A stretch of DNA of 64,000 bases, from the NCBI GenBank assembly GCA_000165345.1, contig CM000430.1, forward strand, positions 896,001-960,000, in the 5' to 3' direction. Positions 46,529 through 56,084 of the stretch are shown here, piece after piece. Within the stretch, counting starts at the first letter, position 1. The number at the start of each line of letters is the position of its first letter. The notes beneath the pieces were generated by a model. The model did no database searches and had not been told where the DNA came from. It saw only the letters and a list, made by a program, of their open reading frames with translations. The position numbers and the translations under genes were made by a program.

Positions 46529-47851
46529 ATGCAGAAAAGAAAGAAGAAATGGAAGCTGGCATTTTGTAACGCTCAAGAATGTGTGAATGCATTGGATTAT
46601 ATGCTTGAAAATAGTTTAGAGACTCTTCTAAATAAGCAAGAAAAACTTAGGGTTGTGGAAGGATTATCAGAAAGAGAAAAGGAGCTGAATATTAAACAAA
46701 ATGAGTTAAACTCAGCTCTAAATGAGGTAGAGGAAGGTTTGAGAAAAACCATCGAATTGACTTTACTTGAGATGAAAGAATTGTCGGAAGAATGCAGACA
46801 CCTTGAAAGAGAATTTACTAAAAAAGCCTCGAATATTCCAAATATCATTGAAAATTTGAATAAGAATGACACCAAATTTGATTCTGAATACCTAGGTAAG
46901 AAAGTTACAGTCGAAGATATACAAAAACTGCAGAATACAAGAAAACAATTACTAGAAGATCTTGAACAATTAAGAAAAGATGAAGAAACTCTCAATAAAG
47001 AGATACAAAACTTGGAGATTAAGTGGAATGCTTATAGAAAAAGAACTCAAAGACTTGAGACTGAAATATCACTTAAAAAAACTGAGACTAATCACCAGGC
47101 TATTCAGGTGGATGCTCATATTAATCGTCGTCTAAGTACTTGTAATAGTATTCGCTCTGATAAAGACAATGATCCAAATATAATGGAAGTAGACGTTATA
47201 CAAGAACAAATGGGAACAAGGAGGAAGAGAAGAGATAGTGTTGTAAAGTGGATTGGAAGACTCTCCATGAATAGTTCGTCTGAAGAGAAAACTAATCAAC
47301 TTTGTGATCATGAATTAGTTACAAATAATGTTAAGGAAGGTACCAAGATTGATAAATCAGATAATAATAACGATATAGAAGATAGAGACGAAGAAGTTCA
47401 AGGCGAGTTACAAGTGCTAAACTTACTAAGTCTAGTCAAGATTGAGCAACCTGAGTCTGACGAAACTTTGACCTCGAAGGCTGGACCTCCCAGCTCTACA
47501 TTAAAACTCAAAGTTGATCCTTCCCCCTTACTTTCCCAATTTTTGGACCCAAATTTTGTATATTGTTCTGATCTACAACCAATAAATGTGGATAAAGAAA
47601 ACTCGAGAAAATCTAATCAAGGACTCTTTTCTAAGGGAGCTTTGGATTTTTCATTAAAGGTCAGAAATCAATGTGATGGGAGTAAAAGCCTTGAAGAAAT
47701 TTCTCTATGTTCCCAAAATCAGGATGCACCAGAAAAATCACTTAATAATGAAGATATTGCGCTCTTTAACATTTTTGTTGGTGAACTTCAAAGAAATGAA
47801 AACATACCTGTATCATCTATTGGAAAGTTACTATGCAGTACACTTAAATAG
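46529..47851 (+). CDS. Hypothetical coiled-coil protein (KEN-box-containing). Minimal single-exon model; candidate 5' exons at 46297..46328 and 46390..46468
   Basis: 440-aa ORF starting at ATG 46529. Upstream, ATG(46297)...TTTACAG|GTAAGT, a 61-nt intron ending ...TTCCAG|, then exon 46390..46468 ending |GTGAGT, then a 66-nt intron ending AAATGCAG| at 46534. This joins in frame (32 + 79 nt = 37 codons) to codon 3 of the ORF, adding MISESFSEIYRTVQECCPVKNSLLDHSDILVNASDIK. Confidence 0.6.
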   Translation: MQKRKKKWKLAFCNAQECVNALDYMLENSLETLLNKQEKLRVVEGLSEREKELNIKQNELNSALNEVEEGLRKTIELTLLEMKELSEECRHLEREFTKKASNIPNIIENLNKNDTKFDSEYLGKKVTVEDIQKLQNTRKQLLEDLEQLRKDEETLNKEIQNLEIKWNAYRKRTQRLETEISLKKTETNHQAIQVDAHINRRLSTCNSIRSDKDNDPNIMEVDVIQEQMGTRRKRRDSVVKWIGRLSMNSSSEEKTNQLCDHELVTNNVKEGTKIDKSDNNNDIEDRDEEVQGELQVLNLLSLVKIEQPESDETLTSKAGPPSSTLKLKVDPSPLLSQFLDPNFVYCSDLQPINVDKENSRKSNQGLFSKGALDFSLKVRNQCDGSKSLEEISLCSQNQDAPEKSLNNEDIALFNIFVGELQRNENIPVSSIGKLLCSTLK

Positions 47852-47906: not shown

Positions 47907-50717
47907 TTATATTGATTTGTTCTTTTTTTTTATCTTTTGAATCAAAGCTATTTTAGTCCAAGGAGACAATTTACCTACATAACTAATAAAGTCTTTCCTA
48001 TGGTACCCTACATTCTTGGAACTTCTGATTTCTTTTGAAAAAATAAAGGGAAACTTGAAATCCTGACTATTGTAAGATACTCTGATAGATTTAAATATAC
48101 TTTCAAGCACTGATTCATCAATATCAATACTTCCAAGCTCCTGTAAATCTGATAAATAATAAACCTTTTTAAAGAGATCTATTTCTTCATCGTAAATAAA
48201 CTTGGAAGTTTCTTTCCAAAAATTATTAGTACTTGAGATTTTATTTGAAGTATTCAATTCGCTGTTTAAATCAATTCTAGTAACTAATTTGTCCCAAAGT
48301 TGATTGGCTTCATCACTCATTTTACTTTTGCAACTAGAAAGAGATTGCTTCTCCTCCTTATCAGTATTGATTAAGTACCTAAGTCTCATAATGTTATTTT
48401 CCAATACATTTTCACGTGAATCTTGATTTAAATCTCCATTAATGATCATCTCACCCATTACCTCCTCAACAAACTGTTCAAGATCACTCATTTTAGTTCT
48501 TAATGCATATTTGTACAATTTGTTCATTCTACAGAATCTAAAATCCTCATTAAAAGTGTTTCTAGCTATAGATAGGAGTTCATGGTGTCTATGTATTCCA
48601 AAAACATAAGTATTTGTATCTTCTAATATGTATTCAATATGTGAACTATCTGTATAGTTTGGAGAGAGCTTGCGAACTAAATAGTTTTGCTCAGTATCTG
48701 AGCTCAAAGCCTTGTTTGTATATCTATAAGAGTAGTTCATTAGTGCTGGAATTCCATATCTTTTTATGCTTCCTGGCTTTATTAATATCAGTGTATGTCT
48801 TCTTCCTTTTGATTTTGCCTCGTTAATTATTCTAAGCCTTGTGTAAGTCTTAATTCTTCTTTTCTCAATCCCATTTTGTGTGGAAAGTCTTCTTCTTTCT
48901 TTCTTTAAATATCTTTTTGTGAAAATATCTCTTTGAGAACTTTCTCCTTTCATCCTTCTATATAGGTCATAAAGCCTACTACTCCAATATTTGTCCGAGT
49001 TATAAATCAATAAATTGTAATCATCTTTTTCTAAAGTACTTGGAAGAGAATTAGGAATAACTTTTGATATAGGATTTTCATCACTCTTTTTCTTAGCAAT
49101 AATCATTGGCTTTGCATTTCCCAACTGTTTTGGAAGTACTTTTTTCGAAAAATTTGATTTGGATAATATATCCGATTTTGTAGTCACTGCTTTTGGAAAA
49201 TTTTTGGAAAACGTTTTAGTCAGTTCTTTATTTTGATCCAAATCTTCAATATTTGGTATATCATTCATCTTCTTTGCAGGAGGGCTCTTTTTTATCTCTG
49301 ATGCTTTTGATATACTACTCTTTGCCTTTCCATCTAAATCTGATAGATCCTTACTTTGTGCTCCTGTCGAATCCTTTGAATTCATCTTCTTAATAACTTC
49401 TTTTATAGGGGTATCTTTTGTATTTATTTCCTTAGTAAGAGTATCTTTATTCAGCAAAATGCTACTTTTTTTTAAAATTGGTGATTTTCCCAATAAAGAT
49501 GTGCTACTTTTTTCAACAACTTTTAAAGGTATACCTCCTTTAACATTTAGCAATGTGTCTTTTTTTAGAGTATCAAGAGTCTTAGCTTTAAGAATTTGAT
49601 TTTCAGTTGATGAACTGTTATCCAAAGATTTTGGTCCGCATATTTTAGTGAAATTGCTTATTTTAGAAGAAGTCTTAACTATACCAGAAGACTTTGCTTG
49701 AATATCAGATTTTGATTTTAGCTCAAAATTATCTTTATTCTCGTTAGGTTTTGTTATATTTAGTGACTTTTTCTTTTTTATTATAGATTCGTTTAATTCT
49801 CGTCTAGCCTCAATTGGGGACCTAATACTACTATCAAATTTCATCATTTTGATTGGATTCTTTTTTTCAGTTAATATAATTTTACAGTTTTCTTTTACAA
49901 CAGACTCGGAAGGTTGAATAATACCAGTATCATACTTCGGATCAGCCTTAATTGAAAGATTTCCCTTTTTTTCAGATAATTTACCAATAAATTTGGAGTA
50001 ACTTGATTTTTTTATTAAATGCCTTACTACCTCACTGTTTTTCACTAAAACTTCCTTCTTCTCAACATCAATTGTTACTCCTTTCTTCAAGCTTCCTTTA
50101 TCAGTAATCAAATCAATATTGAGCTTTTTTATACCTTTATTACGAAGATTATCTATTATTTCCTTGATAAATCTTTCAGCATTCTTCATGTATTCAGCCC
50201 TCCTTTTATTACCTTCAGAAGCTATATGAAGTTTATCATCCCTTAATTTCTGGAGTTTAGCTTTGCTATTTTTTAAATTATCTCTTGCTTTAACTACTTC
50301 CTTCTTTAAAATTTCTCTTAGAGCTTTTTCCCCTCTGGTAATTAACTCAATCCTATTAATTTTGAGAATATCCTTTAAAAATTCTCCCTTTTGTTTGATA
50401 TGCAGGCTTTTTCTTATTGTTTTTTCATTTTTGATTTTAATTTCGCGGATATGAAGCTGTCTTGCTTCTTCAAGAAGCCTATTCCTTCTGTTTATTAAGT
50501 TCTTTGGGCTGTTTTGGCCCCTATATGCATTTCTTTTTGAGAAAAATAACGGGTTATGAGCAACTCTCCTAAGTCTTCTCTTTCTAACTTCAGGCTTTCT
50601 AGATTTCCAAGATTCATCAACATCTTTCAATTTGATGATAGAAGTTGGCATCATTGATTCAACCTTATTAGTAGCTTTTTCTTTCTCTTTTCTAATATTT
50701 CCGAGAAAAGAGCTCAT
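47907..50717 (-). CDS. Hypothetical Lys/Arg-rich basic protein (936 aa as annotated), probably the 3' part of a longer gene continuing through 51196
   Basis: Genuine ATG at 50717. In this frame the upstream sequence stays open for 20 more codons, into the G5 run at 50757-50761. There it differs by one nucleotide from the frame of the upstream basic ORF 50750..51196. Confidence 0.6.
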   Translation of the reverse strand: MSSFLGNIRKEKEKATNKVESMMPTSIIKLKDVDESWKSRKPEVRKRRLRRVAHNPLFFSKRNAYRGQNSPKNLINRRNRLLEEARQLHIREIKIKNEKTIRKSLHIKQKGEFLKDILKINRIELITRGEKALREILKKEVVKARDNLKNSKAKLQKLRDDKLHIASEGNKRRAEYMKNAERFIKEIIDNLRNKGIKKLNIDLITDKGSLKKGVTIDVEKKEVLVKNSEVVRHLIKKSSYSKFIGKLSEKKGNLSIKADPKYDTGIIQPSESVVKENCKIILTEKKNPIKMMKFDSSIRSPIEARRELNESIIKKKKSLNITKPNENKDNFELKSKSDIQAKSSGIVKTSSKISNFTKICGPKSLDNSSSTENQILKAKTLDTLKKDTLLNVKGGIPLKVVEKSSTSLLGKSPILKKSSILLNKDTLTKEINTKDTPIKEVIKKMNSKDSTGAQSKDLSDLDGKAKSSISKASEIKKSPPAKKMNDIPNIEDLDQNKELTKTFSKNFPKAVTTKSDILSKSNFSKKVLPKQLGNAKPMIIAKKKSDENPISKVIPNSLPSTLEKDDYNLLIYNSDKYWSSRLYDLYRRMKGESSQRDIFTKRYLKKERRRLSTQNGIEKRRIKTYTRLRIINEAKSKGRRHTLILIKPGSIKRYGIPALMNYSYRYTNKALSSDTEQNYLVRKLSPNYTDSSHIEYILEDTNTYVFGIHRHHELLSIARNTFNEDFRFCRMNKLYKYALRTKMSDLEQFVEEVMGEMIINGDLNQDSRENVLENNIMRLRYLINTDKEEKQSLSSCKSKMSDEANQLWDKLVTRIDLNSELNTSNKISSTNNFWKETSKFIYDEEIDLFKKVYYLSDLQELGSIDIDESVLESIFKSIRVSYNSQDFKFPFIFSKEIRSSKNVGYHRKDFISYVGKLSPWTKIALIQKIKKKNKSI

Positions 50718-50730
50718 AGAATTTTCATTT

Positions 50731-50761
50731 GGGGGAGTATGTCTAGATATTATACTCCCCC
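50731..50761. other. Perfect 10-bp inverted repeat (GGGGGAGTAT - 11 nt - ATACTCCCCC) spanning the junction of two same-strand ORFs
   Basis: Read directly. The stop codon of ORF 50750..51196 lies in the loop. The G5/C5 arms are the homopolymers where a 1-nt length change fuses the two ORFs. Confidence 0.8.
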
Positions 50762-51196
50762 TTCGTGAAAATATTGGTTATTTAGTTTTCTTGGAAGCAT
50801 TTTCAAGTCCATTCTATTTGGAGACTTTGGTGGAGAATTTTGATTTTGAGCTGAGCCAAAATGAATATCAGTCTTCTTATGTGAATGACGCTGTACCATA
50901 TGGAAATTCAAAACTTTAACCTTTTTTTTATTTCTCACTTTACCTAAAAGTCTAGATAAGTGTATCTTCAAAATAGTGATTTGGTACATCAAACCAATAT
51001 ACCTTCTAATTTTAATCTTTTTAACTAAGTCATTTAAATCATTACCAATATTAGCCAGCTCCTTCACACAACTAAGTCGATTTATATCATCTTTAACTTT
51101 AATTTTTTCCACCTTTTCTGGATCATAATTATGTATATGCTTAAATGCGGAATTCTCTTGTCTTCTTATTGGTACTACTAACTTCAACTTCTCCAT
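50750..51196 (-). CDS. Basic Lys-rich ORF (148 aa from the first ATG), likely the N-terminal segment of the 47907..50717 gene
   Basis: The ORF-track start 51211 is TTG; the ATG is at 51196. It ends FHEGGV-TAA inside the hairpin. With G6 instead of G5 the reading continues ...FHEGGSIISRHTPPNENSMSSFLGNIRK into the downstream ORF. Confidence 0.4.
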   Translation of the reverse strand: MEKLKLVVPIRRQENSAFKHIHNYDPEKVEKIKVKDDINRLSCVKELANIGNDLNDLVKKIKIRRYIGLMYQITILKIHLSRLLGKVRNKKKVKVLNFHMVQRHSHKKTDIHFGSAQNQNSPPKSPNRMDLKMLPRKLNNQYFHEGGV

Positions 51197-51392: not shown

Positions 51393-51617
51393 TGTTGCAC
51401 TTGTAATATTATTACTGTTGAGAGGTACCGAGGGTAAAAAAGAACTATATATGTATTTTTCTGAACAAGAACAAGACTGAAAGAGATTCTGCTGAATCTT
51501 TGCTCAATTTGGAAGAGCTTTTATCAGTTTTTTGTTCTTAACCAACTTTACGTGTTTTGTCTTTACAGCGTATTTAACAGCCGAAAATATATAGAGAGCA
51601 AAATAAAAAAAATTAAT

Positions 51618-54600
51618 ATGAGCTGGTGTGATCCATCTCATACAATTATTAGTTTGGAATTCGCATATGGCTACTTAAAGTTTATAATTCTATACTTTTT
51701 ATCTTTGGTGTTATGGGGTCTCTATAGGCATCACCTTCATCTTAAGGTAGAGGCTGAGATTCCCTCATCTACATCAGAAAAAGAAGCTCTGATTGGATTC
51801 AGAGACAGCATTATTGGAATTTCACTGAAATATATATATTCTGTCTTAATTTTACTGTCACAAATCTTTTTGTGCATTGTAGTTTGGAATGTTGTTTGTG
51901 CAACTTCATCTGAAGTCCAGCCTTATTGGACCACTAGAGCAAAAACATATATTATATTCTATATGTCAGGATTGTCGATGTGCCTAATACTTTACTTTTT
52001 GGAGCCTTTCTTTGAGACATTCTTTTATTTAAGAGAGACTTTGGACAAGTGTGCTTATGTAAAATCTAAAAAAAGACATGGTTTTACTCAAACTCTCAGA
52101 AGCACTCTCAATAAAGCCTTGCAGAGAGAAGCTTCGAATGTTCAACTTGAATCTAATGATTTAATTCTACCTCTGTTAAAAGTGCAAAAGAGAGCAGATA
52201 AGACTAGATTCATCTGCCATAACCAAGTTACATATACATTTTTAGAATCTGAATCAGGTTTTGTTTGTTGTGATCAAAGTAATCTAAATGAGCTTGTAGG
52301 GAAAGAAGGACTCCTTAATAATGGTCTAAATTCTGAAGAAATTAGTAGATTGTCAAATATTATTGGGAAAAATACTATAGATCTTGAAATTCCAGGAATA
52401 TCTCAAGCATTTGCTAAGGAACTACTCCACCCTATTAATATTCTCAGATTAGGTTCTCTTTGGCAAGGAATTTTTTTGAGATTCTATATCTGGGCAGTTC
52501 TTTGGGCAATAATGATTATTTTTACTACTTTTAAAACTCTTAAAGTGATTATATCTAACCAAGAAAACATTAAAAAGGCACTTGAAAATTATATTGGACG
52601 TCCCATCTCAGTCTTGAGAAACGGAAAAAAGGTCAGAATACCCTCCCATGATCTTGTTCCTGGCGATTTAATATTTTTGTCGCAAGACTTAACTGCTCCT
52701 TGTGACATTTATGTGGTTTCAGGATGTGTTGTAGTCAATGAATCTTTTATCACTGGTGAGTCAAACCCTATATTAAAGGTACAGATCGATAGAAACTCAT
52801 TTTCTAATATTACCAGTACTCAACCAGGTAATAAATCCTCGAGCATGACAAACTACGAACTGAAAAATCGAACATGTTCTACTTTGGATTCTATTAACTT
52901 GGATAAATTGGAAATTAACTCAAAAGATGAATGCAACCCTATTTCTCATGATTCTAAGGTTTTACATGAAGATAAAATCATACAAAAGCCCATTTTTATG
53001 GGTACTAAAATTATAAGCTCATTTTCATATGGTGACTACTCAAAAATAGCAATAGGAATTGCATTCAGAACTGGAATATACTCTTCTTATGGTCAATTGC
53101 TTTACAAGACTGTCCACTCATTCTCTAATATAAGCCAATACTCTGTCTCAAACGTGAAATATATCAGAAATCTTAAAGCACTATGGATTATTATGCTTTC
53201 ATCTGCATTTGCTGCAATTTTATACCAGAACCATTTACTTGGTTGGAGTACTGGGTCATTCTTCTTTGCTGTTGGAACCTTTATCCAGCTTTTACCTCTC
53301 TGGGCACCTTCATGTATTCAGTTTTCCCTTAATAAAAGTGTAGAAAGGCTTGTAAATCTGTTTTCATTGTCTTCTACTTTTCCAATGGATATTCCTTTAG
53401 CTGGGAAACTTAAAGTTTTATGTCTAGACAAAACAGGTACTCTTACTACAAACAAAATGATCTTTATTGGTGCAGCAAATGCTATAAAAAATAATAGCTT
53501 TGGATACCCGAATAATATTGCTCATCTTTTAGAGAATAGCAATCCAAATATCAATCTTGAACTTCAAAAAAATAAAGAATCCAAAAGTGTCCAACATATT
53601 GATCATAATAGAAATTCACTTAATATTTACGTTCATTACGAGCTCGTCTGGGAAACATCCACCGTATCATATGAAGAAGAAGATCCTCTAATTAATAAAT
53701 CTACTGGAATTCTTGTAAACCCAATTAGTTCTGAACCCAAATTCCTTCCTCCAATTATTAGCTCCGATTCTTTTTCTCCAGACGACCTTATTTACATTGG
53801 ACTTTGTTGTTGTCATAATATTGTTCCACAAATTACCAACAATGGAACTATTCTAATAGGTAACGATATAGACAAGGCATTATTCACTTCAACTAATGCC
53901 AAAATTAAAATATGCAATGAGAGAAGGTTCATTTCACTCACTGGAGCAAGCGATGAAGACTCAGGTTCAGTTGATAATATTTATGAATACCCAATCGAAG
54001 TTTTGAGAATTAATGAGTTCGATTGGAATAATCCTTGTATGTCTGTGGTAGTTCACCACCGAATATTTGACAGATATTACATTTTCTGTAAAGGATCCTT
54101 TGATGTTTTGACTAAATTCTCTCCAAATAAAGAGGAAATCCTTACCGAGAAACATAAATATCTCAATACTTCAAATAGTTTAGATACAGAGGATGAACAG
54201 GAGCTTGTTGATGCTTTTGAAGTCCTTAACTCCTCTGGTGAAATGGACAGCGACCTCTTAAATAAATACAATCACTCAAGATCCAACAATGTTCAAAAAC
54301 CTATAAGTCATATGAGTGAACATAATATTGTTGACGGTTACAGTAAATTGGGATACTATGTTATGGCAATGTCTTATAGAGAAATTAAAGACAAAGTTTT
54401 GATTGATGCACTTCTGAACAAGCCAAGATCTAATGTTTCTAGAAATACACTTGAATCTGATCTAACAATCATAAGCTATCTTCTTCTGCAAAATGATCTT
54501 AGACCAAAAACTAGAGAATTTATTGATTCTATCAAAATGTCAGGAATTAGGCCAGTCATCTTAACAGGTGACTCAGCATTCACAGCACTATCTGTTGCCC

Positions 54601-56084
54601 GAAAAGCAGGAATAATCTCTAATAAGAACCCTGTTGCAATTGGAGATACTATTATTGACATAACTGGAAAGGAAACAATCGTTTGGTATGATGCTATTGC
54701 TGGAAATAACATAGTAATCTCTCCGAACAAAATCTATGAGTCCACTGAATATAACTCTTTAGTTGTTACATCACGAGCTCTAATGTTATTAAGATCTAAA
54801 AAGTACTTTAGACCTTCTAATTTTGAAATGGCAAATATGATGGGTCCTTTATCAAACTTTAGTTTTTTAAAGACATATTGTAGACTTGAGAAATTCTCTT
54901 CTGAAGAGCTTTCTTCTCATTCTTTGTTTGACCTAGTCTTTGATAGAATCAAGATTTTTGCAAGATCAAATCCTGAACACAAAAGAATCGTTATTTCAGA
55001 ATTCAAAAAGAGAAATATTGTGACAGGAATGATTGGAGACGGAGTTAATGATTTACCTGCATTCAAAATGGCAGATGTTAGTATTTCAGTCCATGAGAAT
55101 TCGTATTATTTTAACAACTTTATAAATAATAATAATTCTATTCAAGAAGAATCCATTCAAAATCATGAAAATTTCAGTATTAATACAGAAAACTCTCCAA
55201 TGACATTGGCATTTTCTTCCTTCTCTATTGAGGCTGACAATATTATGAGAGTTCTTGACCTAATTCGAGAAGGTAGAGCTGCAATGGTTACTACAATTTC
55301 TCTTTTTATGTTTCTTTCCTCTCAAGGTGTATTTTATTCATTTTACAAGAATGTTTTATTTGCTATTGCTCAAGCTAACCTTCCTGTAATGATCTATGTA
55401 TTTATTGACGTATTTCTAGTATTTCCTTCTATTTGGTTAATGATCCTCTGCAAACCAAAGAAATACATTAACTCATACAGGCCAACAGGAGCTTTACTTG
55501 GTAAACGAACTATTATATCATTCCTAAGCTTATTGGGAACGTGTTTCTCATTTTATTATATTGTTATGACAAGACTACTCAACTCTCCTTGGATGATTCC
55601 TTCCCTTAATCACAATGCAGAGATACCAGTTGAAAGATGGTTTCAACGTCAAGATAATTTTGAAGCTTCCGTAACTTCCATTTGGATGGGACTCCAACTT
55701 TCTTCATTATCTCTCATTTTTTCCTTTGGAGGTAAATTCAGAGAGAGAGTTACTAAAAATAAGCGTTTAGTTTTATGGGTAATATGTTGCCATATTTTCC
55801 TTTTATATTTATGTATAAGCAGTCCAAATGCCCTTACTTGTCTATTTAGAGTAAATTGTACTGACCAAATTGATAGATTTTGGGAGTTTCAAATCTTTGG
55901 TTATAATATTTTGAAAATTACAGGAGGGAAATTTCAAGGAGCTGGATCTCATAATGTATTTCCATTGGCTTGGAAAGTGGAATTTATTTTTTGGAACTAC
56001 TTTTCAATTTTATCCATGTCACTTATTTATTGGTGGATATCCTCAAACTCTAATTTAAAAAAAGTAAAATTTAGTGTATACTAA
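51618..56084 (+). CDS. Divergent P-type cation-transporting ATPase (subtype uncertain: P2-like catalytic motifs, long N-terminal membrane extension)
   Basis: The ORF-track start 51552 is GTG; the ATG is at 51618, giving 1488 aa. TGES (FITGESNPILK), phosphorylation site CLDKTGTLTTNKM and hinge GDGVNDLPAFKMADVSISV are all present. The M4 motif reads LLPLWAPS where P2 ATPases have IPEGLP. Three to four extra hydrophobic helices precede the actuator domain. Confidence 0.85.
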   Translation: MSWCDPSHTIISLEFAYGYLKFIILYFLSLVLWGLYRHHLHLKVEAEIPSSTSEKEALIGFRDSIIGISLKYIYSVLILLSQIFLCIVVWNVVCATSSEVQPYWTTRAKTYIIFYMSGLSMCLILYFLEPFFETFFYLRETLDKCAYVKSKKRHGFTQTLRSTLNKALQREASNVQLESNDLILPLLKVQKRADKTRFICHNQVTYTFLESESGFVCCDQSNLNELVGKEGLLNNGLNSEEISRLSNIIGKNTIDLEIPGISQAFAKELLHPINILRLGSLWQGIFLRFYIWAVLWAIMIIFTTFKTLKVIISNQENIKKALENYIGRPISVLRNGKKVRIPSHDLVPGDLIFLSQDLTAPCDIYVVSGCVVVNESFITGESNPILKVQIDRNSFSNITSTQPGNKSSSMTNYELKNRTCSTLDSINLDKLEINSKDECNPISHDSKVLHEDKIIQKPIFMGTKIISSFSYGDYSKIAIGIAFRTGIYSSYGQLLYKTVHSFSNISQYSVSNVKYIRNLKALWIIMLSSAFAAILYQNHLLGWSTGSFFFAVGTFIQLLPLWAPSCIQFSLNKSVERLVNLFSLSSTFPMDIPLAGKLKVLCLDKTGTLTTNKMIFIGAANAIKNNSFGYPNNIAHLLENSNPNINLELQKNKESKSVQHIDHNRNSLNIYVHYELVWETSTVSYEEEDPLINKSTGILVNPISSEPKFLPPIISSDSFSPDDLIYIGLCCCHNIVPQITNNGTILIGNDIDKALFTSTNAKIKICNERRFISLTGASDEDSGSVDNIYEYPIEVLRINEFDWNNPCMSVVVHHRIFDRYYIFCKGSFDVLTKFSPNKEEILTEKHKYLNTSNSLDTEDEQELVDAFEVLNSSGEMDSDLLNKYNHSRSNNVQKPISHMSEHNIVDGYSKLGYYVMAMSYREIKDKVLIDALLNKPRSNVSRNTLESDLTIISYLLLQNDLRPKTREFIDSIKMSGIRPVILTGDSAFTALSVARKAGIISNKNPVAIGDTIIDITGKETIVWYDAIAGNNIVISPNKIYESTEYNSLVVTSRALMLLRSKKYFRPSNFEMANMMGPLSNFSFLKTYCRLEKFSSEELSSHSLFDLVFDRIKIFARSNPEHKRIVISEFKKRNIVTGMIGDGVNDLPAFKMADVSISVHENSYYFNNFINNNNSIQEESIQNHENFSINTENSPMTLAFSSFSIEADNIMRVLDLIREGRAAMVTTISLFMFLSSQGVFYSFYKNVLFAIAQANLPVMIYVFIDVFLVFPSIWLMILCKPKKYINSYRPTGALLGKRTIISFLSLLGTCFSFYYIVMTRLLNSPWMIPSLNHNAEIPVERWFQRQDNFEASVTSIWMGLQLSSLSLIFSFGGKFRERVTKNKRLVLWVICCHIFLLYLCISSPNALTCLFRVNCTDQIDRFWEFQIFGYNILKITGGKFQGAGSHNVFPLAWKVEFIFWNYFSILSMSLIYWWISSNSNLKKVKFSVY

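What the first reader, a model, noticed from the sequence alone, without database searches (positions are those of the whole stretch)
50717..51196. Two same-strand basic ORFs separated by a one-nucleotide frame change at a G5 homopolymer inside a perfect 10-bp hairpin
ORF 50750..51196 (minus strand, Lys-rich) ends FHEGGV-TAA. The ORF starting at ATG 50717 (936 aa, also Lys/Arg-rich) has 20 open codons upstream of its ATG in its own frame, reaching exactly into the GGGGG run (plus-strand CCCCC at 50757-50761). With six Gs instead of five the two ORFs read through continuously (...YFHEGG-SIISRHTPPNENS-MSSFLGNIRK...), giving one protein of about 1100 aa. The junction sits inside the perfect inverted repeat GGGGGAGTAT(N11)ATACTCCCCC at 50731-50761. 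The only other explanation for two genes 30 nt apart would be an unusually short spacer for this genome. The candidates are a homopolymer sequencing/assembly error, a genuine frameshift pseudogenisation, or recoding (a homopolymer next to a stable stem is the classic ribosomal-frameshift geometry).
Basis: seen in the sequence. Interest (0 to 1): 0.6.

Follow-up and report, generated by a model that had tools for sequence, protein, structure and literature searches.

The report
Conserved ribosomal frameshift site in Cryptosporidium
Two back-to-back genes in Cryptosporidium parvum are most likely one ~1100-residue gene read through a conserved -1 ribosomal frameshift signal (a run of U, a 6-nt spacer, then a G/C-clamped hairpin), which current genome annotations record as two genes or patch with a false intron.

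Summary
On the minus strand, ORF1 (51196-50750, 148 aa) and ORF2 (50717-47907, 936 aa) are 32 nt apart and one nucleotide out of frame. A G5 run lies inside a perfect 10-bp hairpin (50761-50731).

It is not a sequencing error. The exact ORF1 and ORF2 proteins recur in about 60 sample blocks. The same frame break, G5 run and hairpin are seen in DNA of nine other Cryptosporidium lineages.

It is not a pseudogene: both halves have dN/dS of 0.1-0.3 at saturating dS.

The hairpin is the strongest synonymous-site constraint in the whole gene (z=9).

The G5 run is probably not the slip site. In C. felis the 0-frame stop lies immediately 5' of the G run. The only shift window common to all taxa holds an invariant UUUU exactly 6 nt upstream of the hairpin. 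This site is the canonical A_AAU_UUU in C. bovis and one metagenomic lineage, and A_UAU_UUU in the window.

This is classic -1 PRF geometry. It predicts a 17-kDa 0-frame product and a 127-kDa trans-frame fusion.

The evidence is comparative only. A conserved AUG 13 nt after the hairpin keeps a two-protein model alive. Confidence in -1 PRF is about 0.7.

The parts
50750..51196 (-). ORF1 in the 0 frame: 148 aa, 17.4 kDa, pI 10.3. It ends ...NNQYFHEGGV and stops at TAA 50752-50750. This is the predicted non-shifted product.
   Evidence: Stand-alone orthologues are annotated in C. hominis, C. meleagridis, C. ubiquitum, C. felis and C. bovis. dN/dS is 0.10-0.23.
50768..50774 (-). Proposed slippery heptamer A_UAU_UUU, with 0-frame codons UAU and UUU. 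The invariant U4 run is at 50771-50768. tRNA-Phe can re-pair perfectly one nucleotide back.
   Evidence: xxT TTT is invariant in 10 lineages, although the preceding amino acid varies (Y, S, H, S, N). The site is the canonical A_AAU_UUU in C. bovis and in L016. It is the only position that lies inside the permitted shift window of every taxon, including C. felis.
50762..50767 (-). 6-nt spacer (CACGAA) between the slip site and the hairpin.
   Evidence: The spacer is exactly 6 nt in all nine frame-broken taxa with DNA, and 7 nt in the in-frame L006. In C. felis it is GCCUAA and carries the 0-frame stop.
50731..50761 (-). Stimulatory hairpin: 5' arm GGGGGAGUAU (50761-50752), 11-nt loop (50751-50741), 3' arm AUACUCCCCC (50740-50731). 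dG is -16.0 kcal/mol. It contains the G5 run and the ORF1 stop codon.
   Evidence: The first 10 bp are paired in 8 of 8 aligned taxa. The only changes are wobble-compatible (UA to UG three times, AU to GU twice). The stem is 10-14 bp, with dG of -16 to -22.7 kcal/mol, in 10 taxa. It is the top synonymous-constraint window of the gene, z = 9.0 against a next-best 5.5. It is the only GC-rich 10-bp hairpin in the 64 kb.
50718..50730 (-). 13-nt tail between the hairpin and the conserved AUG. In the -1 frame it is read as (P)NENS.
   Evidence: The tail is 13 nt in all 10 taxa. Bases 50727-50721 (UGAAAAU) can pair with 50773-50767 (UAUUUUC) as an optional lower helix in five taxa.
47907..50717 (-). 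ORF2 from the conserved ATG: 936 aa, 108.4 kDa if initiated there. Under the frameshift model it is the C-terminal 936 residues of the fusion.
   Evidence: Annotated as CHM_2g4220 in C. hominis, cmbei_2004220 in C. meleagridis and cubi_00797 in C. ubiquitum. dN/dS is 0.14-0.52 by region.
47907..51196 (-). Predicted trans-frame gene: 51196-50768 in the 0 frame, then 50768-47907 in the -1 frame, with base 50768 read twice. The product is 1096 aa and 127.2 kDa, with junction ...LNNQYF|SRRGSIISRHTPPNENSMSSF...
   Evidence: It is collinear with the continuous 1013-aa ORF of L006 and with the single 850-aa proteins of C. muris and C. andersoni.

Best explanation
ORF1 and ORF2 are one gene decoded by programmed -1 ribosomal frameshifting.

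Proposed mechanism (inferred):
- Ribosomes translating ORF1 reach UAU UUU (50773-50768).
- At that moment the base of a G5:C5-clamped hairpin lies 6 nt further on, at the entrance of the mRNA channel.
- The hairpin resists unwinding during translocation, and a fraction of ribosomes move 2 nt instead of 3.
- tRNA-Phe re-pairs with the overlapping UUU (50771-50769), and reading continues in the -1 frame as UCA CGA AGG GGG AGU...
- The ribosome reads through the hairpin and the former 'intergenic' 32 nt into ORF2.
- Non-shifting ribosomes terminate at UAA inside the hairpin.

The locus would therefore give two proteins with a common N-terminus: a 148-aa (17 kDa) product and a 1096-aa (127 kDa) fusion.

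Shown here:
- conservation of the frame break;
- conservation of the U run, the spacer length and the hairpin;
- an open -1 frame;
- purifying selection on both halves.

Inferred, not shown:
- that ribosomes actually shift;
- where exactly they shift;
- with what efficiency.

Evolution (inferred by parsimony): the gastric species keep one ORF, the frame break with its cassette arose in the ancestor of the intestinal clade, and one lineage (L006) later re-fused the frames by adding a nucleotide in the G run.
For: 1. The frame break, G5 run and hairpin are seen in DNA of the window and of nine other lineages: C. hominis, C. meleagridis, chipmunk genotype I, C. ubiquitum, L005, C. felis, C. bovis and L016. 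They are inferred for C. canis from its protein model, which reads ...PVFSRRGSIQLRNTPPDEHSM.

2. Within C. parvum, the exact ORF1 is in 63 sample blocks and the exact ORF2 in 58.

3. ORF1 has dN/dS of 0.10-0.23 and ORF2 0.14-0.52, with dS up to more than 1.

4. The cassette UUUU + 6 nt + 10-14 bp hairpin + 13 nt + AUG is present in all nine frame-broken taxa with DNA. The heptamer is the canonical A_AAU_UUU in C. bovis and L016.

5. C. felis reads G_UCU_UUU_GCC_UAA followed by the hairpin. Its 0-frame stop lies 3 nt after the slip site and before the G run. This is the same layout the review PMC5009743 describes for PEMV, G_GAU_UUU_UGG_UAG.

6. The hairpin is the top synonymous-constraint window of about 1100 tested (z = 9.0; next best 5.5; sd 2.3). 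It uses rare codons: CCC is 5-11% of Pro codons and GGG 11-26% of Gly codons in the AT-rich taxa.

7. Retention of xxU UUU by codon usage alone has a joint probability of about 0.5 per AT-rich lineage, 0.33 in C. felis and 0.09 in L006.

8. The linker behaves as coding sequence. Its length is fixed in seven taxa although the loop sequence has diverged. It is exactly 3 nt shorter in C. bovis and L016. True intergenic spacers at the same loci vary in length.

9. The 0-frame stop wanders from -3 to +45 nt relative to the G run. This is expected if the tail after the slip site is unimportant.

10. L006 carries a continuous ORF that still has the hairpin and the U run. It is nested among frame-broken taxa by sequence identity. 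C. muris and C. andersoni have one 850-aa protein containing both domains.

11. The 32-nt spacer compares with 376 nt or more for every other tandem ORF pair in the window.
Against: - No transcript, ribosome-profiling or peptide data were available, so all evidence is comparative.
- In the window and most intestinal species the heptamer is not canonical. After a -1 slip only the A-site tRNA-Phe re-pairs; the P-site tRNA (Tyr, Ser or His) does not. Efficiency could therefore be low.
- The upper stem shows only one-sided, wobble-compatible changes and no double compensatory change.
- An AUG 13 nt after the hairpin is conserved in all 10 intestinal-clade taxa. It is not conserved in the gastric species. 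It could be a genuine independent start.
- dN/dS of the 13-codon linker is uninformative (0.1-1.8).
- The in-frame lineage L006 keeps the whole cassette. Under the frameshift model this would invert the ratio of long to short product there.
Confidence: 0.7

Rival explanations
1. Ancient gene fission into two independently expressed proteins. After a 1-nt loss in the intestinal-clade ancestor, ORF1 (148 aa) and ORF2 (936 aa, starting at AUG 50717) are made separately. ORF2 would come from a transcript starting inside ORF1, or from internal initiation. The hairpin would have some other role, for example in the ORF2 leader.
For: - The AUG is conserved in all 10 intestinal-clade taxa at a fixed 13 nt from the hairpin. 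In the gastric, single-ORF species the aligned residue is not Met.
- Several annotation pipelines call two genes.
- Both halves are under purifying selection, which this model also explains.
Against: - It gives no reason for the invariant UUUU 6 nt before the hairpin, nor for the canonical A_AAU_UUU in two lineages.
- It gives no reason for the -1 frame staying open from the U run in every taxon, nor for linker length changing only by 3 nt.
- The 32-nt spacer is more than tenfold shorter than any other tandem spacer here.
- The -3 position of the AUG is U in the intestinal species (TCT/TCG ATG). From general knowledge this is a weak initiation context.
- L006 would require a secondary re-fusion of two genes.
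Confidence: 0.17
2. Slippage on the G5 run itself. Either ribosomal -1 slippage on A_GGG_GGA, or RNA polymerase adding a G, gives ...YFHEGG|SIIS....
For: - The G5 run is invariant.
- The in-frame L006 differs by an extra nucleotide in exactly this run, so the mutation that made or removed the break happened here.
- Compensatory frameshifting on a G run is documented for HSV thymidine kinase in review PMC5009743.
Against: - In C. felis the 0-frame TAA immediately precedes the G run. Neither mechanism could rescue the frame there, yet the C. felis ORF2 frame stays open and homologous.
- The G run is base-paired in the stem rather than lying upstream of it.
- From general knowledge, G/C in the YYZ (A-site) codon of the heptamer is poorly slippery in eukaryotic -1 PRF, and five residues is short for transcriptional slippage.
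Confidence: 0.06
3. Termination-reinitiation. Ribosomes finish ORF1 and, tethered by the hairpin region, restart at the nearby AUG, as at calicivirus-type TURBS sites. The result is two proteins from one mRNA.
For: - A conserved AUG lies close to the ORF1 stop.
- In chipmunk genotype I the stop and start overlap as AUGA.
- A conserved structured element lies just upstream of the AUG.
Against: - The distance from stop to start is not conserved. It ranges from 47 nt upstream (C. felis) to overlapping (chipmunk), whereas this mechanism depends on proximity.
- It does not explain the U run, the fixed 6-nt spacer or the coding-like behaviour of the linker.
- Complementarity to 18S rRNA could not be tested.
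Confidence: 0.04
4. Artefact or decay: a homopolymer sequencing error, a recent pseudogene, or an unrecognised small intron that restores the frame.
For: - A G5 homopolymer at the junction is a typical site of error.
- One annotation (chipmunk genotype I, ELE39_003065) does bridge the frames with a 47-nt GT..AG intron.
Against: - The exact ORF1 is indexed in 63 sample blocks, and 10 lineages share the break.
- dN/dS is 0.1-0.3.
- The chipmunk intron's acceptor AG is absent in C. parvum, C. meleagridis and C. ubiquitum, and the 'intron' encodes conserved residues.
- No GT..AG pair of length 3k+2 is shared by the seven intestinal taxa.
Confidence: 0.02

Closest known systems
Hairpin-stimulated viral -1 PRF signals with an N_NNU_UUU shift site, e.g. 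the umbravirus PEMV G_GAU_UUU_UGG_UAG (review PMC5009743). From memory: dianthovirus GGAUUUU, and HIV-1 U_UUU_UUA with a stem-loop.
   Same: - The A-site codon UUU can re-pair with the overlapping UUU.
- A short spacer precedes a stable stem-loop rather than a pseudoknot.
- The 0-frame stop lies close behind the shift site (3 nt in C. felis, as in PEMV).
- The result is a short 0-frame product and a long trans-frame fusion with a shared N-terminus.
   Different: - This is a single-copy, syntenic chromosomal gene of a protist, not a virus or mobile element.
- In most species the P-site codon cannot re-pair at all after the slip.
- No long-distance RNA interaction is evident.
- Efficiency is unknown.
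Conserved cellular -1 PRF genes of animals, PEG10 and the PNMA/Ma3 genes (from general knowledge).
   Same: A chromosomal gene with two overlapping ORFs joined by -1 PRF. The signal is conserved across species together with purifying selection on both ORFs.
   Different: - Those genes derive from retroelement gag-pol and keep its architecture.
- This gene has no Pfam domain, no sign of mobile-element origin, and a single-ORF form in the gastric Cryptosporidium species.
Compensatory ('corrective' or 'savior indel') frameshifting, e.g. the HSV thymidine kinase G-run mutants (PMC5009743).
   Same: A 1-nt indel in a G run separates two halves of an ancestral single ORF. The full-length product then depends on ribosomes changing frame.
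   Different: - The break here is fixed across a whole clade, not a recent mutant.
- It is accompanied by a dedicated slip site, spacer and hairpin.
- The 0-frame product (ORF1) is itself under purifying selection rather than being useless.
E. coli dnaX, where the tau and gamma products arise by -1 PRF (from general knowledge).
   Same: One gene yields a long and a short protein sharing an N-terminus, through a slippery site followed by a stem-loop. The in-frame L006 configuration would resemble dnaX most closely, with the shifted product being the truncated one.
   Different: - dnaX is bacterial, with A_AAA_AAG and an upstream Shine-Dalgarno-like stimulator.
- In dnaX the frameshift makes the short form, whereas in nine of ten Cryptosporidium lineages it would make the long form.

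Membership tests
Programmed -1 ribosomal frameshift signal (eukaryotic type) | Slippery heptamer X_XXY_YYZ in the 0 frame | tested here: inconclusive
   The heptamer is the canonical A_AAU_UUU in C. bovis and L016. It is A_UAU_UUU in the window, A_AGU_UUU in chipmunk, A_CAU_UUU in C. ubiquitum and G_UCU_UUU in C. felis. In these only the A-site UUU can re-pair. The U4 run is invariant in all 10 taxa.
Programmed -1 ribosomal frameshift signal (eukaryotic type) | Spacer of about 5-9 nt between the heptamer and the stimulatory structure | tested here: met
   Exactly 6 nt in all nine frame-broken taxa with DNA, and 7 nt in L006.
Programmed -1 ribosomal frameshift signal (eukaryotic type) | Stable downstream RNA structure, conserved in evolution | tested here: met
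   The stem is 10-14 bp and starts with five G:C pairs; dG is -16.0 to -22.7 kcal/mol. The first 10 pairs are 100% paired in 8 taxa. Changes are wobble-compatible only; no double compensatory change was seen. The 101-nt fold has z = -3.6.
Programmed -1 ribosomal frameshift signal (eukaryotic type) | A long -1 frame ORF open from the slip site, with a 0-frame stop downstream of it | tested here: met
   The -1 frame is open from 16-76 nt before the G run in every taxon. The 0-frame stop lies between 3 nt before and 45 nt after the start of the G run, always 3' of the U run.
Programmed -1 ribosomal frameshift signal (eukaryotic type) | Suppressed synonymous variation at the signal, and purifying selection on both ORFs | tested here: met
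   The hairpin window is the top one of about 1100 tested, z = 9.0. dN/dS is 0.10-0.23 for ORF1 and 0.14-0.52 for ORF2.
Programmed -1 ribosomal frameshift signal (eukaryotic type) | A trans-frame protein is made, and this depends on the slip site and the structure | not testable with these tools
   This needs proteomics, ribosome profiling or reporter assays. The diagnostic tryptic peptides were computed.
Homopolymer sequencing or assembly error | Run length differs between independent assemblies or reads, and the break is absent from relatives | tested here: not met
   The exact ORF1 is indexed in 63 sample blocks (NCBI and Logan) and the exact ORF2 in 58. G5 is present in nine further lineages.
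Pseudogene | Relaxed selection (dN/dS near 1) and further disabling mutations | tested here: not met
   dN/dS is 0.1-0.3 in the conserved parts at saturating dS. Both ORFs are intact in all taxa.
Spliceosomal intron restoring the frame | A conserved GT..AG pair of length 3k+2 bridging the two frames | tested here: not met
   No such pair is shared by the seven intestinal taxa. The 47-nt intron of the chipmunk model lacks its acceptor in other species and encodes conserved residues.
Transcriptional slippage | A long homopolymer at which an added base restores the frame in all carriers | tested here: not met
   The run is only 5 G. In C. felis a 0-frame TAA precedes it, so an added G cannot join the ORFs. 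The RNA-level run length was not testable.
Termination-reinitiation (TURBS-like) | Stop and restart codons overlapping or closely and constantly spaced | tested here: not met
   Depending on species, the stop lies from 47 nt upstream of the AUG to overlapping it. Complementarity to 18S rRNA was not tested.
Two independent genes | An own promoter and 5' end for the downstream gene, a typical intergenic spacer, and a conserved start codon | tested here: inconclusive
   The start codon is conserved in 10 taxa. The spacer is 32 nt against 376 nt or more for other tandem pairs. A 5' end cannot be tested with these tools.

The most novel reading that the evidence does not exclude
This would be the first conserved programmed -1 ribosomal frameshift in a nuclear, non-mobile gene of an apicomplexan. 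It would be maintained across the whole intestinal Cryptosporidium clade, from C. bovis to C. parvum. It would set a fixed ratio of a 17-kDa protein to a 127-kDa fusion. One lineage (L006) would have secondarily abolished the requirement by a 1-nt insertion in the stem's G run. The site would also be a natural reporter for translational fidelity in a parasite that is hard to study.
Probability: 0.6. Interest if true: 0.78.

Novelty: new member of a known kind. Interest (0 to 1): 0.7.

Why it matters
- Well-supported cellular -1 PRF genes in eukaryotes are very few, and most derive from retroelements. A clade-wide case in a protist housekeeping-type locus would widen the known range of recoding.
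- The case comes with natural variants: canonical against degenerate heptamers, stems of 10 to 14 bp, and one lineage back in frame. These variants allow the mechanism to be dissected.
- On the practical side, the locus appears mis-annotated in every Cryptosporidium genome examined. It is recorded as two hypothetical genes in C. parvum-type assemblies, C. hominis, C. meleagridis, C. ubiquitum, C. felis and C. bovis. The frames are bridged by a spurious intron in chipmunk genotype I. The C. canis model also switches frame, by a join I did not see because its DNA was not fetched.
- Orthology tables and 'species-specific gene' counts are affected by this.
- I found no paper describing the locus.

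Tried and rejected
- Sequencing error: rejected on about 60 concordant sample blocks and 10 lineages.
- Pseudogene: rejected on dN/dS.
- Intron: a systematic search for a shared GT..AG pair of length 3k+2 found none across seven taxa. One candidate (+6 to +76, 71 nt) is shared by six taxa. It would delete the conserved MSSFLGNIRKE, has a poor GAG acceptor, and cannot work in C. felis. The annotated chipmunk intron was reproduced exactly and shown not to be conserved.
- Slip on the G run, or transcriptional G insertion: rejected as the common mechanism because of the C. felis TAA.
- T4 gene 60-like bypass from GGA (50758-50756) to the conserved GGA codon 53 nt downstream (50702-50700): considered because the take-off codon is followed closely by a stop in a hairpin. 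Rejected because the skipped segment is conserved as protein and is translated in frame in L006.
- IRE1/XBP1-type unconventional splicing (removal of 3k+2 nt): considered and rejected for the same reason.
- Protein function: Pfam gave no hit above threshold for ORF1, ORF2 or the L006 protein. The AlphaFold2 model of the conserved C-terminal domain had mean pLDDT 40 and was unusable, so no fold search was run.
- Rfam: nothing meaningful at the junction.
- Cassette pattern scan of the JGI metagenomes: two unrelated chance hits only.
- Third homologue search, with the C-terminal profile: returned nothing.
Their state is known only from annotated proteins.

Full report
**1. The observation**

All features below lie on the minus strand.
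- ORF1 runs from ATG 51196 to TAA 50752-50750 (148 aa, ending ...NNQYFHEGGV).
- ORF2 runs from ATG 50717 to 47907 (936 aa).
- The two ORFs are separated by 32 nt, and ORF2 is in the -1 frame relative to ORF1.
- The G5 run is at 50761-50757. It is the first five bases of a perfect inverted repeat, GGGGGAGTAT / ATACTCCCCC (50761-50752 and 50740-50731), with an 11-nt loop.
- The ORF1 stop codon lies inside this hairpin.
- The ORF2 frame is open for 20 codons upstream of its ATG.
- One extra G would give a 1096-aa ORF.

The hairpin is not a chance feature.
- It is the only perfect 10-bp hairpin with at least 6 G/C in the 64 kb.
- Markov simulations gave none in 100 trials.
- The local fold has z = -3.6.

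Other head-to-tail ORF pairs in the window are 376-2566 nt apart.

**2. Not an error, not a pseudogene**

The window is C. parvum-type sequence.
- Identical ORF2 loci were found in GCA_031892065.1 and GCA_048859185.1.
- The exact ORF2 protein is indexed in 58 sample blocks.
- The exact 148-aa ORF1, which requires G5, is indexed in 63 sample blocks.

Orthologous DNA was fetched from the following sources:
- C. hominis
- C. meleagridis
- chipmunk genotype I
- C. ubiquitum
- C. felis
- C. bovis
- two unnamed Logan assemblies (L005/L014 and L006)
- one ENA metagenome contig (L016)

Every one of these except L006 shows the same -1 frame break, the same G5 run and the same hairpin.

The '1078-aa single ORF' of chipmunk genotype I is an annotation device. 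It is reproduced exactly by deleting a 47-nt GT..AG segment. That segment's acceptor is missing in other species, and the segment encodes conserved residues.

The C. canis model likewise switches into the -1 frame.

Among frame-broken taxa dS reaches more than 1. Yet dN/dS is 0.10-0.23 for ORF1 and 0.14-0.52 for parts of ORF2. Both halves are therefore translated and selected.

**3. One ancestral gene**

- With a -1 shift, every taxon gives a 1075-1221 aa protein collinear with the truly continuous 1013-aa ORF of L006.
- The gastric species C. muris and C. andersoni are annotated with one 850-aa protein containing both the N-terminal and the C-terminal conserved regions.
- By sequence identity, L006 is closest to C. 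canis. It is nested inside frame-broken lineages, with C. felis and C. bovis lying outside it.
- Its in-frame state (A2G7 instead of A3G5 or GA2G5, one nucleotide longer) is therefore most simply a secondary re-fusion. This is an inference.

**4. Where the frame can change**

C. felis is decisive. Its junction reads CAG TCT TTT GCC TAA GGGGGAGTG... The 0-frame stop lies immediately 5' of the G run. The ORF2 frame is open from GAG CCA GTC TTT TGC CTA AGG GGG AGT and continues for more than 1000 codons.

A slip on the G run, or an extra G in the RNA, cannot join the ORFs in C. felis.

The only segment that lies inside the permitted shift window of all taxa contains an invariant TTTT. The window is bounded by the last upstream -1 frame stop and the first downstream 0-frame stop. 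The 0-frame codons there are xxT TTT.

This TTTT lies exactly 6 nt upstream of the hairpin in all nine frame-broken taxa.
- In C. bovis and L016 the heptamer is A_AAU_UUU, a canonical X_XXY_YYZ site.
- In the window it is A_UAU_UUU (50774-50768).
- The amino acid before Phe varies (Y, S, H, S, N), but its codon always ends in U.
- Codon usage alone would give this with a probability of about 0.5 per AT-rich lineage, 0.33 in C. felis and 0.09 in GC3-rich L006.

Slip site, 6-nt spacer and stable stem-loop together form the textbook -1 PRF arrangement.

The C. felis layout has a stop 3 nt after N_NNU_UUU. It matches that described for PEMV, G_GAU_UUU_UGG_UAG (PMC5009743).

**5. The hairpin is under selection as nucleic acid**

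- The stem is 10-14 bp, with dG of -16.0 to -22.7 kcal/mol, in all ten taxa.
- The first ten pairs are paired in 8 of 8 aligned taxa.
- The only substitutions are U-A to U.G and A-U to G.U. In C. felis both occur and the stem is extended.
- There is no double compensatory change in the upper stem, so covariation support is modest.
- An optional lower helix pairs 50773-50767 with 50727-50721. It forms in five taxa, has two double changes, and is absent in C. felis and L005.
- A synonymous-site scan over the whole fused gene (8 taxa, 11-codon windows) puts the hairpin window first, with z = 9.0 against a next best of 5.5 and an sd of 2.3.
- The arms use the rare codons GGG and CCC.

**6. The 'intergenic' linker behaves as coding sequence**

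- The distance from the G run to the AUG is 44 nt in seven taxa, despite an unrecognisably diverged loop.
- It is 41 nt, exactly one codon less, in C. bovis and L016.
- Genuine intergenic spacers at the same loci vary freely in length.
- The -1 frame peptide GS[IV]xx[RG/N][NH][TA]PP is conserved.
- dN/dS of these 13 codons is too noisy to use.

**7. Mechanism proposed, and what remains open**

Most ribosomes would terminate in or near the hairpin and give the 17.4-kDa ORF1 protein.

A fraction would slip -1 on UUU while the G:C-clamped stem sits at the mRNA channel entrance. These would produce a 127.2-kDa fusion...LNNQYF|SRRGSIISRHTPPNENSMSSF....

That ribosomes shift, and how often, is inferred and not shown.

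Three points weaken the case:
- The P-site codon is non-canonical in most species.
- The stem shows no double covariation.
- An AUG is conserved 13 nt after the hairpin in all ten intestinal-clade taxa.

The conserved AUG keeps an independent-initiation (two-protein) model alive at about 0.17. The two mechanisms could also coexist.

Termination-reinitiation is disfavoured, because the distance from stop to start varies from 47 nt to overlapping.

**8. Known or new**

No paper in the searchable library links Cryptosporidium, or nuclear genes of Apicomplexa, to programmed frameshifting.
- The gene identifiers tried gave no hits.
- The two C. parvum re-annotation papers read mention frameshifts only as assembly artefacts or variants at other genes.

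The mechanism is a known kind. This instance would be a new member, in an unusual host and an unusual gene type.

The protein has no recognisable domain, and its structure could not be modelled.

Noticed in passing
L003 3372-3418 (chipmunk genotype I, ELE39_003065). Also the C. canis OJ253_2517 and C. ryanae FG386_002408 proteins.: Public gene models paper over the frame break. The chipmunk model removes a non-conserved 47-nt GT..AG 'intron' from conserved coding sequence. The C. canis model reads about 64 aa of ORF1 and then the -1 frame. The C. ryanae model is a single 899-aa protein whose junction lacks the RNTPP motif, and its DNA was not checked.
   Followed up: partly
L006 3425-3500 (Logan SRR31860986, unnamed GC3-rich Cryptosporidium close to C. 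canis): This is the only lineage with a truly continuous ORF: TTT CGC AAG GGG GGG AGT (G7, one nucleotide more). It still keeps the U run and an 11-bp hairpin. A -1 slip there would give a truncated product (FSQGGEC*), which is the inverse of the other species.
   Followed up: partly
window 50767-50773 with 50721-50727 (minus strand): UAUUUUC can pair with UGAAAAU, forming a lower helix that encloses the hairpin and sequesters the slip site. It is predicted in five taxa, has a compensatory A-U to G-C change in L006, and is absent in C. felis and L005. Its role is unclear. It may explain the synonymous conservation of AAATGAA after the stem.
   Followed up: partly
window 50700-50702 and 50756-50758 (minus strand): The last sense codons before the ORF1 stop include GGA. 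A GGA codon (the G of MSSFLG) recurs 53 nt downstream in the ORF2 frame in the six closest frame-broken taxa, and is GGG in in-frame L006. This resembles the take-off and landing pair of T4 gene 60 bypassing. I judged it coincidental, because the skipped segment is conserved as protein.
   Followed up: partly
C. muris CMU_002680 and C. andersoni cand_002340 (P0016, P0019), residues around 130-150: In the single-ORF gastric proteins, the segment aligned to the junction reads ...PFRSRSRSVSTTTPIP.... This resembles the predicted trans-frame peptide F|SRRGSIISRHTPP more than the 0-frame FHEGGV. The sequence is low-complexity, so the hint is weak.
   Followed up: no
window 46529-47851 (+): The convergent downstream neighbour appears as a 440-aa ORF in the window and in Logan gene calls. 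In the NCBI assemblies of C. parvum, C. hominis and C. meleagridis it is annotated as 472-475 aa over about 1.55 kb. This implies an intron or a 5' exon not visible as a simple ORF. It lies only 55 nt from the end of ORF2.
   Followed up: no
window 51552-56084 (+): The divergent upstream neighbour is a P-type ATPase of about 1490 aa (PF00122 E1-E2_ATPase). It is syntenic with the ORF1/ORF2 locus in every species examined, which shows that the frameshift gene is a stable single-copy chromosomal locus.
   Followed up: yes
L016 (ENA ERZ11466776 NODE_11976, 1707 nt, 36.5% GC): A metagenome contig from an unidentified Cryptosporidium-like organism carries the full cassette with the canonical A_AAU_UUU heptamer. 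Its ORF1 is N-terminally extended (183 aa). Its identity and host are unknown.
   Followed up: no
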